64,000 nt of DNA, from NCBI RefSeq assembly GCF_009914755.1, contig NC_060940.1; one strand, 5' to 3'. Within the stretch, counting starts at the first letter, position 1; each line of letters opens with the position of its first letter. This stretch comes from the human T2T-CHM13v2.0 reference genome, Homo sapiens. The notes under the pieces are model-generated. The model was not told the origin of the DNA, searched no databases, and worked only from the letters and a program-made list of their open reading frames with translations. The translations under genes and the position numbers were made by a program. Below, piece by piece: positions 992 through 53,924 of this stretch.

Positions 992-1139
992 AGGAAGCCC
1001 ATCGTTTGAACGACAAATGACAGCAGCGTGAATCTGCCGCTTTACCCAACAGCAGGGCGCCTGCATGAAACAAATTACTCAAAAGGCTCACCTGCAGAAA
1101 AACCCACAGCCACCACCACTTAGAGATAGAGAGAGGCAG

Positions 1140-1610
1140 GGGGCTGCGCCGCGGGCGGTCCGCGCAGCAACCCCCCCCCCCGCCCCCCCACCCCTTGTGC
1201 CTCCCGCCAACCCCGCACCGCCTCCGACGCCGGACGCCCCGGTGCCCCAGGCCAGGACCTGAGGCGCAGGGCCCGGCCTCCTCGCCCCGCAGGCGTGCGC
1301 ACACAGCCTCCCAGCAGCCGCTGGCTCAGCCGGCGCCCGCGATCCCGACGCCTCTCGCTACCCGAGGGGCGTGCCCGCGCGGGACTGCCGCCCCCTCCAC
1401 CGACCCGCGCTTACCGCCAATCGCAAGGCGGCTCTGCGGGCGCAGCCAATGGGGAAGAGGAGCCCTTCCCTGCTCCTCCTGACTCTCCCGCTTCCCGCAA
1501 TCCCGTTTATCTTCCTACTTGGAGCTCACCCACTGCAGCCAGGGCCAACCGCCGGCGCCGGAAGGCGGGATTTCCGCGGCACGCACGCACGCCCGCACTC
1601 CCACGGGAGT
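1140..1610. promoter_or_regulatory. CpG island / HERC2-paralog promoter
   Basis: Dense CpG. CCAAT boxes at 1417 and 1446, ETS-like CCGGAAG at ~1558, adjacent GGCGGGA, and GC boxes. Confidence 0.85.
1259..1337 (-). pseudogene. HERC2: HERC2 duplicate, non-coding exon 1 (5' end approximate)
   Basis: Minus strand GGCGCCGGCTGAGCCAGCGGCT...GGCCGGGCCCTGCGCCTCAG|GT resembles the recalled HERC2 5'UTR and would splice to GCCTGAG of exon 2. Confidence 0.8.
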
Positions 1611-13134: not shown

Positions 13135-16626
<3,492 letters not shown>

Positions 16627-48962: not shown

Positions 48963-49499
48963 TTAGCTGCTGCTGCTTGTCAGGAGCATGGGGATGGCAT
49001 GCCGATGCTCCACTTCACTAAACTCTACCATCATTATAGAAGTTTTGGAGTAGCCTATGAAAGACAGAATCATGTCATTATCCAAGAGACAAAATCCTCT
49101 AGAGTAAGCAGTTCTCCTGGATATAAACTTGGTGCTGGTTCATTTAGCATTTGCTACGAACCAATGTCTAAAATTAGAGGCAGTTTCTCCTAAAGTGAGA
49201 TGACATGAGTCAGTTGATAAAAGTGTGAAGCACTCCTGTGAGTATTGTCCCTCATAATTCATTCAAAAACATTTGCTTCTGTCTTTGCAACTTCATGCTC
49301 TCTGAATTCCCACACTGAGTAAAAACCTCCTTGGTGGGCTTATAATCAATCTCACATATTTAACAATTTGGATTTTATCTTACGTTCCGCTATAAAATAT
49401 GGAACAAAATCGGTTTGATTTACAGTAGATGTAAAATAGAAAAATTAGGATGGGCTATTCTGGACATGTAGAATTAGTTCCTTTCATGGGTTTTCTACA

Positions 49500-50640
49500 A
49501 ACCTGTATTTATTACACTAAAATAATGCTAAAATATATTTTGTTTTATTGTGTGGAGTTTAAATGGATACACTGGATAATGGAATAACATTAACTAAATA
49601 AACATTGATGCCTATTTTTTTCAGTGTTTTAAAATTTTTTAACAAAGATTTCTTTTTACGGTAAAATTGCACTTCATTAAATCTACTCCTAAATATTTCT
49701 TTCTTTTTCATACATACACAAATGGATTGTTTTTTTAATTTTATTTTCAGGTTGATCATTGTTAGTACATAAAAGTACAATTGAACTTTGCATATTGATT
49801 TTGTATCTTGTGACCTTGCTGAACTCATGTATTGGTTTTAGTGGGTTTTAATGAGTTTTTTATAAACTTTTATATTCACTTATGTCCTCTGCAATGATAG
49901 ACAATTCTAACATCTTATTTTCCCACATTGATGATTTTGTTTTTTTCTCTCATGTAATTTCTTTGGATGTTAACATTTTTGCCTTGTTCTAAAATGTCAA
50001 GACACAACAACCAGTATTTTACTATTATGGCGTTAGGTGTAAGTTTTTCACTGATGCTCTTTAGCAGATTTAGGAAGTTTGCTTGTACCCTTCCTTTCCA
50101 GGGAGATTGTGAATGAATATTGGATTGGTCAAATGCTCCCTGTGTCTGTTGAAAGGCTCTTTCTGTTAATTTCCTTTATCCTATTACTTTGTGTAAGGCA
50201 CTGATTGATTATCGGATAGATCAATATTGCATCTGTAAAATAATTCCATTTGGTCATGGTGTACATTCATTTTGATATATTCTTGATTCATTTCGCTTTT
50301 TTGAGAATTTCTCTGTGTGTATTCATCAGGGAAATTCATCCATACACATATTTACTTCTGATGCTTTTGTCTGCCTTTAGTATCAGGGTAATACTGGCCT
50401 CACAGAACAAATTGGGAAGTGTTCCCAATAACTGTCCCATATTTTCTGGAAGGTCTTGTAAAGAGTTGGCATTAATTCTTCATTAAATGTTTAGTAGAAT
50501 TTACCAGTTAAGCCATGTGGCTCTGGGCTTCTCTTTTTGTGAAGATTTTTAATTAATTGAATCTCTTTACTTGTTATATGTGTATTCATATATTCTGTTC
50601 CTTCTTGGATTTGCTTTTATAATTGGTGCCTATTGAGGTA
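49500..50640 (-). mobile_element. Old L1M fragments (antisense)
   Basis: GATTTTGTATCTTGTGACCTTGCTGAACTCA, GTATCAGGGTAATACTGGCCTCA, AGTAGAATTTACCAGT. Confidence 0.85.
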
Positions 50641-50844
50641 TTTATTTCTAATTTGTAGTATTTCATGTGTTTAGGTTTTCTAGACAGTTGGCACAGAAGA
50701 TTCAAGAAGTTTAATGTAGGAGAATGTTTAATGTAGGAGAATGAGGCTTTGGTGTCATCAATGAATGACTTGAAGTTTCTTATGTTGTAATGAAAGATAT
50801 GACCGTAACTGCCATAGTTAATATTTATTGTGCAAGTCAAATAA

Positions 50845-51868
50845 GAAGGCAGGAGGAAAGGACATCCATCACTCAATCACACACCAGTGTACTCATTAAA
50901 GCCTTTGAGAAGGACCCTCAACATTTTCCAAGAGAATTCCTTTCCTGGAATCACCATTATAGAGAAACTGGCTAAACAGACAGGCATTTCAGAGTCCAAA
51001 ATTTACATTTGGTTTCAGAACCAAAGACCTCAGCTCCCAGGCCACAGCAGAAGCGGGCTTGTGAATTCCCTGGCAGCGGGTCCAAGACCAAGACCTCATC
51101 TGACTGTTTGGCTGGAACAAAACATGTGCACTACCCCAGGCAGGTCTCATCTTCTTCCTGCCTCCTATTCTGTCAGCAGCCACCTGTCATTTGTACCAGC
51201 TCTTCCTTCACCTCCCACAACCTGTGATTTTTTGGATCCCTCTGCAGGCTGTGTGAGCCAGGCACCAAGGGTCACGATGCACATAGCACCCTGGCTGTGC
51301 AGATGGGAGAGTTCTCTCAACCTCTTCTGGCACTTAGGAGTCATATGTCAATGGTACCAACTCTAGGAGGGAGGCTCTCCCATACACAGACTTGTTTCTG
51401 GCCTCAGTCGAAAGGAAAACTTTAGGATGACAAGAAAAATAAGACACTGGCCTGGAAGTTCTGCCTTAAAGGGACAGCCACAGCCTGGTCATCCTTAGCC
51501 ACAATTTTAGAGTCTGGGTCAACAGGACACATCCCACCTTCACAAGTGGTGGAGCTTAGGCAACGGGTCCCAGGATGCCATGATTCAATGGCAACCTGGA
51601 GCAGGAGCACCTTAGTAGCCCATGCACATAGGTCTACCTGTGGCAGAAACAGGCACAAGCCATGAAAGAGCCATCTATCTGCTGGAGCAACCACACCAGT
51701 CATCTGCATGATCTTCTACAAGTCCCAGAGTTTCAGGAAAAGGCACAATCTTTTCGGAATGCAGATCCACAAGAGGAGGGCCCTCCGTGGTCTGAATCAC
51801 CACTCAGTGAGAAAGAATTTCAGGCTCTGCTTAACAGGCTGCAGAGCTCACCAGGGGATCAGCTTTAG
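50845..51868 (+). pseudogene. Intronless DUX-family (DUXC/DUX4-like) pseudogene: one homeodomain plus C-terminal activation motif
   Basis: EGRRK/TSITQSHTSVLIKAFEK [insert/frameshift] FPGITIIEKLAKQTGISESKIYIWFQNQRPQLPG resembles DUX4 HD2. The end, LHDLLQVPEFQEKAQSF...ESPLSEKEFQALLNRL...* (51868), resembles DUX4 LLDELLASPEFLQQAQ...APLSEEEYRALLEEL. Multiple frameshifts. Confidence 0.88.
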
Positions 51869-52545
51869 CAGGCAGGCATCCTTCTCAGCACTGCCATCCA
51901 GGACTCTTTCCCTTGGACACAAACAGCAAAATGCCAGGAAGACGGGACCAGGAACACAGTGTGGTCAGAAGCAAGACTGATGCAAGAAGCAACCACTTGG
52001 AAATCCAAAGGGAGCATTTTGGCCCTCTCCTGTGGGCAGCCCTCAACTTTGGTGCTCACTTCCTAACCTCAGTGACGGTTTCTGAGCTTCATCCTGCCTC
52101 TGGAGTCCACATGGGCTCCAGGCGGTGAACAGTTTCACTGAATCCTGATGCAGCAAAGCAGCATTCTCATGACAAACAGGACCTCTTCACTTTGATCATA
52201 AGCTCCTGGGCCATCTGGACAATGCACAAACTGGAAACCCAGCAAGGGGAGGAAAGTAGCTCTAAGGGGGACACATTCCCACTTCTTTCCCTTCTAGCAA
52301 GTTTGAAAGCTAATTGTAAATGCAGGTGGATATGTAGAAAATGAGGGCATGCTATAACTTCTCATCACATGAGGTTATGACCAGGAGTTTTTAATCCTAG
52401 CTCTGAGAGCTGCAAATGGGAATTGGAAGTTTTTCCACTAAGCATCTATCAATGACTGATTGTGCAAGCTTATCTTCATCATGCTGAGGAGTCTTCACTG
52501 AGAATTTTCCTATTGAACAAATAAACATAGAGATAGTGACAAGTA

Positions 52546-52846
52546 GGCCAGGCATAGAGGCTCACGCCAGTAATCCCAGCATTTTGTGAGACCAAGGTGG
52601 GCAAATCAGTTGAGGCCAGGAGTTCGAGACCAGCCTGGGCAACATGTCAAAACCCCGTCTCCACTAAAAACACAAAAAACAGCTGGGCATGGTTACTCAT
52701 GCTGGTAATTCCAGATATTCGGGTGGCTGAAGCCTGAGAATCTTCTGAACCCAGGAGGCAGAGGCTGCAGTGTGTTGATATTTTGCCACTGTACTCCAGC
52801 TTGGGCAACAGAGCAAGACTCTGTCTCAAAAAAAAAAAAAAAAAAG
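52546..52846 (+). mobile_element. Alu
   Basis: Full diverged Alu with poly-A. Confidence 0.93.
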
Positions 52847-53924
52847 AAGCAAGTGAGTAAGAGAGAGAAAACTATAAAATCACTGAACAAAGTGTAAAGA
52901 TGTTAATTTTCCCACAACGTTAGAAATTTTGTGTATATTTACATGCATATCTACACATAAAGCTGATCTCCTTATATGTTAAATCAGTTACATGTTCAGT
53001 GAAAAATACATTATTTTCTCTGTTTTAACACTGAAGAGGGGTGCACGTGGTCCAGACATGTCCTGTTGGAGTTGAATGGGGCATGTTCTGGGAAAAGGGG
53101 AAAGGCAGAGTAAGGGCCTGGTGCATTTAGGTGGGGTAAAGTGGGACTCTAATAGAGAGGCATCCAGGGTCTGGGCCCTAGCAACACTGAGGCTCACGGG
53201 GGCTTCTGCAGGTGAGGGAAATGGTGCAGGGTGCTGAAGGCTAAAATATCCTGTAACAGGCGAAGATCTGGCCAGATCGTCCTGCATTCCAGCATCATTG
53301 CCAGCCAGGCCTAACTTGACCCTATATTGAAGACACCTGGGATGGACAGGCGTGAGCCTCCAGGCTTCAAAGAGCCCCCAAATGAGATCTGCCCTGCGGC
53401 AAGGGTCCAGACCGTTACGGCCAGGCCAATTTAAAAGAGCCCCATCTCCTCTGTTCTCAGAGGCTTAAGCGGGTGGAGAACAGATAAGAAGTGAACTGAA
53501 GTCTCCTTGAAAAAAACAAAGTCCCATGGGGTTTGCCACCCCCTCCCCCCACCCACCTAAAACTGGAACCAGTCAGCCACCTCTGTCTCTTCTCCATGCC
53601 AAGAACCTCTGTTCAGGGCTCCTGGCAAACCCCTCCTCCCTGCTGCCTCCCCGCCACAGTACGCTTGCCAGGAATGCCCGAGATCTGGCACCTGAGCATG
53701 TTGCGTGGCAGGCGGGGGAGCAAGCGGGACAAGGGCGGCGATGTGTCCTGCACAAAGGCCCAGGCTGCAGACCAACTCGCCTCGCAGCAGGTAGCAGCTG
53801 TGTGCCCCCTGCCAGGCCACTCCCCCTCGCGGAGCAGCAGCTCCCGCTGCCACTTCTGTTTGTTGAACACAGGATGTATGAATGACGGCTAGGGAGCCAA
53901 GGATGGGGATGGTGGCGACATCTG

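What the first reader, a model, noticed from the sequence alone, without database searches (positions are those of the whole stretch)
50845..51868. CpG-poor, intronless DUXC/DUX4-like relic retaining the C-terminal activation motif
Seen: an HD2-like homeodomain with no intron before IWFQN, ~1 kb of linker and a recognisable LxDLL..PEF / PLSExEFxALL C-terminus, plus a short extension (QSSPGDQL) that DUX4 lacks as I recall it. It is far less GC/CpG-rich than D4Z4-type DUX4 and no first homeodomain is visible. Established: intron-containing DUX genes have an intron within each homeobox, and DUX4 is considered a retrocopy of DUXC sharing this C-terminal domain. Inference: this may be an old, independent DUXC-type retrocopy, informative about the lost primate DUXC. 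ORF 51662-51868 covers only the activation motif.
Basis: partly seen in the sequence, partly recalled or inferred. Interest (0 to 1): 0.7.

Follow-up and report, generated by a model that had tools for sequence, protein, structure and literature searches.

The report
Old DUXC-type retrocopy relic
This is a dead, front-truncated retrocopy of a long-lost DUXC-like double-homeobox gene of our ancestors, and following it led to an intron-containing relic of the likely parent gene on chromosome 10, which bears on where the disease gene DUX4 came from.

Summary
Window 50843-51868 encodes a second homeodomain (Pfam E 4.4e-9), a collinear linker and a DUX4/DUXC C-terminal activation domain, with no intron at the homeobox 46/47 site. 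GC is 50% and CpG o/e 0.11, against 73% and 0.76 for DUX4.

The element is longer than reported. A 3'UTR runs to about 53005 and is split by an Alu.

It is a 5'-truncated processed pseudogene with 3 stops, 6 frameshifts and a 22-nt insertion. Four near-identical copies lie on 16p11.2.

It belongs to an old, CpG-poor family on chr1, 5, 7, 8, 12, 16, X and Y. Copies are 64-74% identical at DNA level. I infer at least six insertion events. Some copies keep both homeodomains without introns.

T2T chr10:43.457-43.463 Mb holds an intron-containing relative. Its GT..AG introns sit exactly where the retrocopies are spliced. This is a candidate unprocessed human DUXC pseudogene.

An AU test rejects nesting within human-lineage DUX4 (p 9e-44). 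The C-terminal tail matches DUXC, not DUX4. Deeper placement is unresolved.

The window copy has no function. Its value is evolutionary.

The parts
50843..51006 (+). Part derived from exon 3: N-terminal 46 residues of homeodomain 2, with the 5' truncation point about 12 nt into exon 3
   Evidence: Local alignments to the chr12 and chr16:38.93 retrocopies and to chr10 exon 3 start at 50843-50846. The upstream sequence has no homology to exon 2 or intron 2.
50911..50932 (+). 22-nt insertion that shifts the frame inside homeodomain 2
   Evidence: It appears as a gap in the alignments to chr12 and chr16:38.93. The 16q11.2 paralogue L005 has a similar insertion in its frameshift-aware alignment. 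The two halves of the homeodomain are in different frames.
51007..51868 (+). Coding part derived from exon 4: helix 3 of homeodomain 2 (IWFQNQR), decayed linker, C-terminal domain and stop
   Evidence: Pfam PF00046. tblastn with DUX4. A frameshift-aware alignment to pangolin DUXC covers residues 111-443 with 3 stops and 6 frameshifts, and ends at the same C-terminal residue.
51698..51868 (+). C-terminal activation-domain homologue with a DUXC-type tail and stop codon, lying inside the stop-to-stop ORF 51632-51868
   Evidence: BLASTP of the ORF against black rhinoceros DUXC gives E 1e-14 and 45% over 83 aa, reaching the ..SPG tail. Against human DUX4 it gives E 5e-5 and 39% over 69 aa.
51869..52545 (+). 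3'UTR, proximal part
   Evidence: Collinear with the chr5, chr12, chr7, chr8 and chrY copies and with the chr10 last exon at 65-76% identity.
52546..52845 (+). Later Alu-like insertion ending in an A-run; not part of the retrocopy
   Evidence: Absent at this site in the chr5 and chr12 copies. It matches Alu-like stretches elsewhere in other loci, in either orientation. The Alu name rests on recall of the sequence type and no repeat library was run.
52846..53005 (+). 3'UTR, distal part, up to the decayed polyadenylation site
   Evidence: Homology to chr5, chr12 and chr7 resumes at 52869-52872 and ends at 52965-53005. In chr5 and chr12 it ends 15-20 nt after an AATAAA, with unrelated sequence beyond.

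Best explanation
The element at window 50843 to about 53005 is a non-functional, 5'-truncated processed pseudogene.

Inferred history:
- A spliced mRNA of an intron-containing double-homeobox gene with a C-terminal activation domain (DUXC-type) was reverse-transcribed and inserted in the germ line of a distant ancestor.
- The copy lacks exons 1-2. It keeps most of exon 3 and all of exon 4: homeodomain 2, linker, activation domain and 3'UTR.
- It then decayed neutrally. It lost its CpGs and gained 3 stops, 6 frameshifts, a 22-nt insertion and an Alu.
- It was later carried along by pericentromeric chr16 duplications: first 16p11.2/16q11.2, then four near-identical 16p11.2 copies.

The source gene, or a close paralogue of it, survives as an unprocessed pseudogene at T2T chr10:43,457,212-43,463,323.

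Shown: the anatomy, the absence of the intron, the copy family, the intron-containing relative, and exclusion from crown DUX4.
Inferred: LINE-1-mediated retroposition, germ-line or early-embryo expression of the source, and the age.
For: (1) Domain content and order match DUX4 and DUXC.

(2) The chr10 locus has four coding exons with canonical splice sites.
- Exon 1 runs from the ATG to homeodomain-1 residue 46, followed by GT.
- Exon 2 follows an AG and starts IWFQNQ.
- Exon 3 ends at homeodomain-2 residue 46, followed by GTAAGT.
- After an intron of about 490 bp ending TTAG, exon 4 carries the rest of the protein and the 3'UTR.
- The chr12 retrocopy aligns to these exons with the junctions closed.
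- The window is closed at the exon 3/4 junction, 51006|51007.

(3) The chr12 copy has both homeodomains in one frame (DUX4 aa 12-277, E 1e-25). The chr16:38.93 copy covers aa 28-143 (E 3e-21). So the family derives from a double-homeobox mRNA.

(4) The shared 3'UTR ends just after an AATAAA in chr5 and chr12, with unrelated flanks beyond.

(5) The window's 5' end (50843) differs from that of the chr7/8/Y group (50980). Copies of that group share a 5' flank of their own.

(6) Phylogeny.
- The window, the chr10 locus and the family consensus form one group (UFboot 99, SH-aLRT 93).
- Primate DUX4 is a separate clade at 100.
- The AU test rejects relics plus human DUX4 (p 9e-44).

(7) The tail ..FQALLNRLQSSPGDQL ends at the same residue as pangolin DUXC. 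The SGxVNSLAAGP motif after homeodomain 2 is present in the relics and in DUXC, DUXB and DUXBL, and absent from primate DUX4.

(8) Age.
- K2P to independent copies is 0.33-0.50 and to the 16q11.2 paralogue 0.093.
- All 30 loci are CpG-poor, with o/e 0.06-0.25.
Against: - No target-site duplication or A-tail is recognisable at the window copy. I looked by eye only.
- The chr10 locus is further from the retrocopies (K2P 0.45-0.51 to the window, chr5 and chr12) than chr5 and chr12 are from each other (0.354). It may be a paralogue of the true parent rather than the parent itself.
- Deep placement is weak. AU tests do not reject relics as sister to primate DUX4 (p 0.18) or grouped with DUXB (p 0.36). 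The grouping with other C-terminal-domain genes has only 78% support.
- The consensus row in the trees is my own construct with a very short branch, which may pull the group toward the base.
- A DNA profile of the family matches D4Z4 only at the homeoboxes (E 1.7e-41) and the C-terminal domain (E 2.7e-6), not downstream of the DUX4 stop. So no 3'UTR link to DUX4 was found.
- The truncation point lies within 12 nt of an exon boundary. This could be chance or could reflect an alternative transcript start.
- No other species' genome was examined, so the ages rest on divergence alone.
Confidence: 0.85

Rival explanations
1. It is a decayed copy of the D4Z4/DUX4L 3.3-kb repeat family, and its differences are explained by CpG decay alone.
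For: It shares homeodomain 2 and the C-terminal domain with DUX4. The ORF search picked up 122 weak D4Z4-like matches (E 0.004-9.6) in acrocentric and pericentromeric regions.
Against: - The AU test rejects relics plus human DUX4 (p 9e-44).
- No D4Z4 locus is among the 37 DNA matches.
- The element carries a 1.1-kb 3'UTR shared with an intron-containing chr10 gene and not found in D4Z4.
- It keeps a DUXC-type tail and a post-homeodomain motif that primate DUX4 lacks.
Confidence: 0.02
2. It is a retrocopy of an early, already intronless DUX4-lineage retrogene (stem DUX4), not of the intron-containing gene. The chr10 locus would then be only a cousin.
For: Relics as sister to primate DUX4 are not rejected (AU p 0.18). 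The chr10 locus is more distant from the retrocopies than they are from each other. An intronless source would also yield intronless copies.
Against: - The retrocopies share 5' and 3' untranslated sequence with the chr10 exons. The chr12 copy aligns to the chr10 last exon over its 3'UTR at 69% across 907 nt.
- No such 3'UTR is detectable in D4Z4.
- Ancestral motifs lost in all six sampled primate DUX4 proteins are retained in the relics.
Confidence: 0.08
3. It is an unprocessed genomic fragment of a DUXC gene, for example a remnant of an old tandem array, moved by segmental duplication.
For: DUXC genes form arrays in other mammals (PMC13558733, passages read). The window copy lies in a duplication-rich pericentromere and has four near-identical copies.
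Against: The exon 3/4 junction is closed at the exact splice site. Sequence upstream of 50843 shows no similarity to chr10 intron 2. The family ends at a polyadenylation signal.
Confidence: 0.01
4. The 68-codon ATG ORF (51662-51868) encodes a functional activation-domain micropeptide.
For: The frame is open in all four 16p11.2 copies, at 100, 100, 100 and 99% identity.
Against: Those four copies are recent duplicates and are not independent. The 16q11.2 paralogue has 2 stops in the same stretch and the chr5 copy has 1. No promoter, transcript or annotation overlaps it in the hub's gene table. An open run of 78 codons in 50% GC DNA is not unusual.
Confidence: 0.02

Closest known systems
DUXC, the intron-containing double-homeobox gene with a C-terminal activation domain, known from Laurasiatheria and Xenarthra
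   Same: - Two homeodomains are present at family level (chr12 and chr16:38.93 copies and the chr10 locus).
- There is an intron at position 46/47 of each homeobox plus one between them (chr10 locus).
- The C-terminal domain is shared.
- The same short tail follows ..FQALLxxL, and the stop is at the same residue as in pangolin DUXC.
   Different: - The human relics are single, CpG-poor and dead. DUXC of cattle is GC-rich and sits in a subtelomeric tandem array on chromosome 7 (bioRxiv 10.64898/2026.03.05.709741, passages read).
- Orthology is not shown, and trees leave the deep placement open.
- Published work states that no DUXC orthologue was found in primates (PMC3004920, passages read).
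DUX4 in the D4Z4 macrosatellite, with its DUX4L copies
   Same: Intronless coding region, homeodomain 2 and a C-terminal activation domain. Both are thought to descend from DUXC by retroposition.
   Different: - DUX4 has 73% GC and CpG o/e 0.76, sits in 3.3-kb tandem units and has an open frame.
- Its protein ends 8 residues earlier.
- It lacks the SGPVNSLAAGP-type motif.
- It shares no detectable 3'UTR with the relics.
- The relics lie outside the primate DUX4 clade.
DUXAP1-10, the processed pseudogenes of DUXA
   Same: Dispersed, intronless, dead retrocopies of a germ-line or embryo-expressed DUX gene. Several lie in pericentromeric duplications. Likely DUXAP loci on chr10, 14 and 22 appeared as weaker matches that cross the exon 1/2 junction. 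Their names are recalled and were not checked.
   Different: DUXA has no C-terminal activation domain and its parent gene is alive. The parent of the present family is itself a pseudogene.
DUXBLP, the unprocessed DUXBL pseudogene at 10q22.3
   Same: A decaying intron-containing DUX gene on human chromosome 10. A homeodomain-1 exon was seen at chr10:80.887 Mb, 72% identical to elephant DUXB-like protein.
   Different: It is a different locus, 37 Mb away, and DUXBL proteins lack the C-terminal domain. The 10q11.21 locus carries that domain and the 3'UTR shared with the retrocopies.

Membership tests
Processed pseudogene (retrocopy) | Introns of the parent gene are absent exactly at the splice junctions | tested here: met
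   The window is continuous across 51006|51007, where chr10 has a GTAAGT..TTAG intron of about 490 bp. The chr12 copy closes all three coding junctions.
Processed pseudogene (retrocopy) | Ends at the mRNA 3' end, with a polyadenylation signal and A-tail | tested here: inconclusive
   Family homology ends 15-20 nt after an AATAAA in chr5 and chr12. In the window the signal and tail have decayed to TTAAATCA..GAAAAATA.
Processed pseudogene (retrocopy) | Target-site duplications and flanks unrelated to the parent locus | tested here: inconclusive
   Flanks are unrelated to chr10 and to the other copies. No duplication was recognised by eye.
DUXC-type gene (source of the relic) | Two paired-type homeodomains | tested here: met
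   Met for the family: chr12, chr16:38.93 and chr10 have both. The window copy itself has only homeodomain 2.
DUXC-type gene (source of the relic) | Intron within each homeobox at position 46/47 | tested here: met
   chr10 exon 1 ends ..ESRIQ followed by GT. Exon 3 ends ..ESRI(stop) followed by GTAAGT. Exons 2 and 4 start with (I/M)W.QN after an AG.
DUXC-type gene (source of the relic) | Conserved C-terminal activation domain, absent from DUXA, DUXB and DUXBL | tested here: met
   BLASTP of the window ORF against rhinoceros DUXC gives E 1e-14. The domain is present in the window, chr16:38.60, chr5, chr12, chr1, chr8, chr7 and chr10 rows. Function was not tested.
DUXC-type gene (source of the relic) | Orthology with laurasiatherian DUXC, by tree or synteny | tested here: inconclusive
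   The best tree puts the relics with the C-terminal-domain genes (support 78), but alternatives are not rejected. Synteny could not be tested because no other mammalian genome is held.
DUXC-type gene (source of the relic) | GC-rich tandem-array organisation | tested here: not met
   Only one set of exons lies in 30 kb around chr10:43.46 Mb. The chr10 exons have GC 0.54 and CpG o/e 0.17. This feature is common in DUXC but not universal: single-copy DUXC is reported in tapir, pangolin and armadillo (PMC13558733, passage read).
D4Z4 / DUX4L repeat copy | Nests within primate DUX4 and lies in a GC-rich 3.3-kb unit | tested here: not met
   AU p 9e-44 against nesting with human DUX4. GC 0.50 against 0.73. 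No D4Z4 match at DNA level among the 37 matches.

The most novel reading that the evidence does not exclude
The intron-containing locus at T2T chr10:43,457,212-43,463,323 (10q11.21) is the long-missing primate DUXC, preserved as an unprocessed pseudogene. A partial inverted duplicate holding exons 1-2 lies at 10p11.21.

On this reading the window relic and its relatives are a fossil series of that gene's mRNAs. They record its 5'UTR, splice pattern, C-terminus and 3'UTR before it died. Together they would give a concrete ancestral locus and sequence for the gene from which DUX4 was retrotransposed.

The papers I could read say that no DUXC orthologue has been found in primates.
Probability: 0.5. 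Interest if true: 0.7.

Novelty: new member of a known kind. Interest (0 to 1): 0.55.

Why it matters
DUX4 causes facioscapulohumeral dystrophy and acts at human zygotic genome activation. It is held to be a retrocopy of DUXC, a gene described as lost in primates with no trace found (PMC3004920 and PMC2965761, passages read).

The window relic itself does nothing. Its family and the chr10 intron-containing locus are physical remains of a DUXC-type gene in the human lineage. They open three lines of work:
- dating the loss of the gene;
- comparing the sequence of the ancestral protein and transcript with DUX4;
- asking whether DUX4 and DUXC coexisted in early primates.

There is also a practical point. 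These copies carry DUX-like homeobox and activation-domain sequence in duplicated regions of chr16, 7, 8 and Y. They can attract cross-mapping reads or probes in DUX4 work.

Tried and rejected
- **First DNA consensus.** It was dominated by the chr7/8/Y group and by an insertion those copies share, so I did not use it. I replaced it with frameshift-aware protein-to-DNA alignments.
- **First tree.** It is invalid. For chr12 and chr16:38.93 my script overwrote the homeodomain-1 block with homeodomain-2 residues. This was corrected and the tree was redone.
- **Homeodomain-2 versus homeodomain-1 identities.** These are off register and meaningless, so I dropped them. The homeodomain-2 assignment rests on position, on exon homology and on 31 of 59 identities to DUX4 homeodomain 2.
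- **Lesion counts for chr10 (4 stops, 11 frameshifts).** Up to two of the frameshifts are my own artefacts, because the spliced construct was off by +1 and -1 nt at two junctions and +3 nt at a third. An in-frame TAG at homeodomain-2 residue 46 and a TGA in helix 3 are seen directly.
- **chr5 as a single-homeodomain splice isoform.** Rejected. It has a complete homeodomain 1 including exon 2, followed by an internal deletion.
- **chr7/8/Y copies as an exon 1-exon 4 isoform.** Rejected. Their upstream sequence is a shared non-homeobox flank.
- **Weak C-terminal-domain-like match at chr10:80.841 Mb (E 1.08).** It was not confirmed by tblastn on L078.
- **3'UTR homology between the family and D4Z4.** None was found.
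- **Pfam on the C-terminal ORF.** No family was found.
- **Rows left out of the trees.** Sheep DUXC, a second camel DUXC, Rhinopithecus DUXB and P0258 were left out of both trees for being partial or misaligned. Saguinus DUX4, otter DUXC and orca DUXC were also left out to save time. In one search every relic copy other than the window, chr10 and the consensus was left out.
- **Literature.** Searches and passages of PMC3004920, PMC13558733, PMC3141429, PMC2965761, PMC12376486, PMC10514451 and bioRxiv 10.64898/2026.03.05.709741 gave no description of a human DUXC relic. Clapp et al. 2007 (PMC1950813) is not held. Supplements were not opened and could list such loci.
- **HGNC names.** DUX4L47 (typed as a processed pseudogene in one table) and DUX4L50 occur in papers without coordinates. 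I recall, but could not check, that some DUX4L numbers map to chr16p11.2.
Full report
**1. What is in the window**

Translation of 50700-51960 in three frames and the ORF list show three pieces.
- The N-terminal half of a homeodomain lies in one frame, from 50844 (RRQEERTSITQSHTSVLIKAFEKD).
- Its C-terminal half and about 100 further residues lie in a second frame (FPGITIIEKLAKQTGISESKIYIWFQNQRPQLPG...).
- A third frame holds a 78-codon stop-to-stop ORF, 51632-51868. It ends ..HLHDLLQVPEFQEKAQSF..PLSEKEFQALLNRLQSSPGDQL.

Pfam scores the second piece as Homeodomain (E 4.4e-9, 36.5 bits, cut-off 22.9) and finds nothing for the ORF.

I took human DUX4 from a D4Z4 unit of the same assembly (L061). 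By tblastn it aligns to 50917-51609 and 51653-51841 with a linked E of 2e-18. The alignment includes a collinear W-rich block in the linker.

No other homeodomain is found in the 64 kb. The remaining hits are GC-rich, low-complexity stretches at 1.1-1.5 kb and 13-16 kb.

The region has GC 0.498 and CpG o/e 0.11. The DUX4 CDS has GC 0.732 and o/e 0.756.

**2. It is one of a family**

A DNA search of the window's own genome with 50800-51900 gave 37 matches.
- Four copies on 16p11.2 (32.62, 33.10, 33.59 and 34.34 Mb) are about 100% identical.
- One copy at chr16:38.60 Mb is 86% identical, or 88.9% over 4.1 kb including flanks.
- Older matches at 64-74% lie on chr5, chr12, chr7 (four places), chr8 (two), chr16:38.93 Mb, chr1, chr10 and chrY (many, in triplicate).
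- Short pieces lie on chr22.
- A later search with the chr12 copy's 5' region added a fragment on chrX.
- None of the 37 matches lies in a D4Z4 array.

All 30 fetched loci are CpG-poor, with o/e 0.06-0.25.

Homology between copies runs from window 50933-50980 to 52541. It resumes after an Alu-like insertion (52546-52845) and continues to 52965-53005. The unit therefore includes about 1.1 kb of sequence after the stop codon.

In the chr5 and chr12 copies it ends 15-20 nt after an AATAAA, and the sequences beyond are unrelated. That is the anatomy of an mRNA 3' end.

**3. Other copies keep both homeodomains without introns**

- The chr12 copy aligns to DUX4 residues 12-277 in a single frame (E 1e-25).
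- The chr16:38.93 copy aligns to residues 28-143 (E 3e-21).
- The chr5 copy has a complete first homeodomain, followed by an internal deletion into the second.
- The chr7, chr8 and chrY copies all start at window position 50980. They share a non-homeobox 5' flank of their own and an internal insertion. I therefore read them as one truncated insertion spread by duplication.

On this reading the family records at least six insertion events: the window lineage, the chr7/8/Y lineage, chr5, chr12, chr16:38.93 and chr1. The chrX and chr22 fragments were not examined further. Independence is inferred from different truncation points and flanks, not proven.

**4. An intron-containing relative on chromosome 10**

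The chr10 match (L027) showed a gap of about 490 bp at the point corresponding to window ~51004. Reading it gave an exon preceded by a polypyrimidine tract and CAG. That exon encodes ..[34 protein letters not shown], then an in-frame TAG, and is followed by GTAAGT. After an intron ending ..CTCTTAG the next exon starts ATGTGGGCTCAGAAC.

With 30 kb around it, tblastn with DUXC proteins found a first-homeodomain exon 3.4 kb upstream, 66.7% identical to reindeer DUXC residues 20-64. That exon is open from an ATG (MAL...) to ..ESRIQ followed by GT. A short exon starting IWFQNQ after an AG lies 2.9 kb downstream.

Aligning the chr12 retrocopy to this region shows four blocks that abut in the retrocopy at exactly these exon ends. 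The last exon's 3'UTR is included, at 69% identity over 907 nt.

My reading of the coordinates (T2T chr10):

| Exon | Coordinates |
|---|---|
| Exon 1, coding part | 43,457,212-43,457,391 |
| Exon 2 | 43,460,257-43,460,368 |
| Exon 3 | 43,460,758-43,460,910 |
| Exon 4 | 43,461,407 to about 43,463,323 |

This is the gene structure described for intron-containing DUX genes, joined to a C-terminal domain (..SLLDELLTTSEFQK....SQEEFQALLDALQSSLG). That combination is DUXC-type.

The locus is a pseudogene. Stops and frameshifts are seen directly. One search counted 4 stops and 11 frameshifts, of which up to two frameshifts are artefacts of my splice-boundary choices.

A partial, inverted duplicate with exons 1-2 only lies at chr10:38.108-38.112 Mb (10p11.21). 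It is 92.8% identical over 3.1 kb and 94% over 561 nt.

**5. The window copy in this frame**

Local alignments place the start of homology at 50843-50846, about 12 nt into exon 3. The exon 3/4 junction lies at 51006|51007 with no intervening sequence.

A 22-nt insertion at about 50911-50932 is absent from chr12 and chr16:38.93. The 16q11.2 paralogue has an insertion at the same place.

A frameshift-aware alignment to pangolin DUXC runs from residue 111 to the last residue, 443, with 3 stops and 6 frameshifts. The relic's stop codon falls at the same position as the DUXC stop.

The copy is therefore a 5'-truncated retrocopy lacking exons 1-2. Whether truncation so near an exon boundary is chance or reflects another transcript start is open.

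**6. Relation to DUX4, DUXC, DUXB and DUXBL**

Named relatives came from protein searches and a representative search.
- DUXC of monk seal, bear, dog, rhinoceros, pangolin, dromedary and whales ends ..(F/Y)QALLxMLxxSPGPxx or similar.
- The relics end ..FQALLxxLQSSPGxQL.
- Human and New World monkey DUX4 end at ..ALLEEL.
- The window ORF scores 53.5 bits (E 1e-14, 45%) against rhinoceros DUXC and 26.6 bits (E 5e-5, 39%) against human DUX4.
- A motif after homeodomain 2 (SGPVNSLAAGP..) is present in the relics, DUXC, DUXB and DUXBL, but not in the six sampled primate DUX4 sequences.

I built a reference-anchored alignment of homeodomain 1, homeodomain 2 plus 18 residues, and the C-terminal domain. 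It has 199 columns and 33 rows; the rows left out are listed under Tried and rejected.
- In the JTT+G tree the window, chr10 and the family consensus group together at UFboot 99. Primate DUX4 is a clade at 100.
- An LG+G quick tree gives 93 and 100.

AU tests:

| Constraint | Result |
|---|---|
| Relics + human DUX4 | 83.7 lnL worse, p 9e-44 |
| Relics + all primate DUX4 | p 0.18 |
| Relics + DUXB | p 0.36 |
| Relics + all C-terminal-domain genes | already one side of a branch, support 78 |

So the relic is firmly outside crown DUX4. Its deeper position cannot be settled from about 200 decayed columns. The C-terminal domain and tail are the characters that tie it to DUXC. A first tree was flawed and is disregarded.

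**7. Age (inference)**

K2P distances over the exon-4 part:

| Comparison | K2P |
|---|---|
| Window to 16q11.2 paralogue | 0.093 |
| Window to chr7/8/Y group | 0.33-0.48 |
| Window to chr5 and chr12 | 0.375-0.40 |
| Window to chr10 | 0.48 |
| chr5 to chr12 | 0.354 |

Roughly 0.17-0.2 substitutions per site per lineage is the range I recall for repeats of early primate to early eutherian age. Loss of CpGs from a once GC-rich transcript would inflate it.

I therefore place the insertions broadly at tens of millions of years, before the catarrhine radiation, and cannot be more exact without other genomes. The four 16p11.2 copies are recent.

**8. Function**

None is expected. The copy lacks a start, a promoter, the first homeodomain and an intact second one. 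The open C-terminal ORF is interrupted in the 16q11.2 and chr5 relatives. No annotated gene overlaps it in the hub's table.

**9. Literature**

- Leidenroth and Hewitt 2010 state that they found no DUXC orthologue in primates or Glires, and note that missing anchor genes could hide some (PMC3004920, passages).
- Snider et al. 2010 call DUXC lost in the primate lineage (PMC2965761, passages).
- The 2026 survey filtered for two intact in-frame homeodomains and so excluded pseudogenes (PMC13558733, passages).
- Zhong and Holland 2011 list DUX4-like loci on chromosomes 3, 4, 10q26 and Y, and DUXBLP (PMC3141429, passages).
- Four full-text searches gave no paper describing a human DUXC relic.
- Supplements were not read, and Clapp et al. 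2007 is not held.
- HGNC names such as DUX4L47 exist as processed pseudogenes. Some may denote these very copies, which I could not check.

**10. Verdict**

In itself it is an ordinary dead retrocopy. Its interest lies in the family and in the chr10 intron-containing locus, which may be the missing primate DUXC.

Noticed in passing
L027 / L064: T2T chr10:43,457,212-43,463,323 (outside the window): An intron-containing, four-coding-exon DUX pseudogene with a C-terminal activation domain and the 3'UTR shared by the retrocopy family. It is a candidate unprocessed human DUXC relic.
   Followed up: yes
L075: T2T chr10:38,107,963-38,112,892 (10p11.21): An inverted partial duplicate of the chr10 locus, 93-94% identical. 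It holds exons 1 and 2 and ends at about the start of exon 3.
   Followed up: partly
L007-L009, L011, L012, L014-L026, L028-L030 (chr7 56.9 and 65.2-65.6 Mb, chr8 47.2 Mb, chrY 7.5, 8.1 and 23.8-25.9 Mb): A subgroup of copies that all start at window position 50980. They share their own 5' flank and an internal insertion of about 500 bp before the C-terminal motif. I read them as one truncated retrocopy multiplied by pericentromeric and Y-ampliconic duplication.
   Followed up: partly
L068: T2T chrX:127,387,189-127,387,369: A fragment 80% identical to the 5' untranslated part of the chr12 retrocopy. It may be another copy or a piece of one.
   Followed up: no
window 52546-52845: An Alu-like element with an 18-nt A-run, inserted into the relic's 3'UTR. 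It is absent at that site in the chr5 and chr12 copies.
   Followed up: partly
window 49800-50640: AT-rich sequence directly upstream of the relic that looks like LINE-1 by eye (recalled; no repeat library was run). It is shared with the 16q11.2 paralogue, whose homology spans 49312-53393.
   Followed up: no
proteins P0041 and P0094: Records named as Helicobacter pylori and Plasmodium vivax proteins are 90% and 60% identical to human DUX4. They are almost certainly human DNA contamination in those public assemblies.
   Followed up: no
protein P0109 (407 aa, source gives no species): An intact DUX4/DUXC-like protein, 44-47% identical to human DUX4, with a C-terminal domain ending ..FQALLDLLQ. 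It groups loosely with tree shrew and primate DUX4. Its species is unknown.
   Followed up: partly
window 1100-1550 and 13200-16300: GC-rich, proline/alanine/glycine-coding stretches near the HERC2P5 end and ABHD17AP7. They give spurious tblastn hits to the low-complexity linker of DUX4.
   Followed up: no
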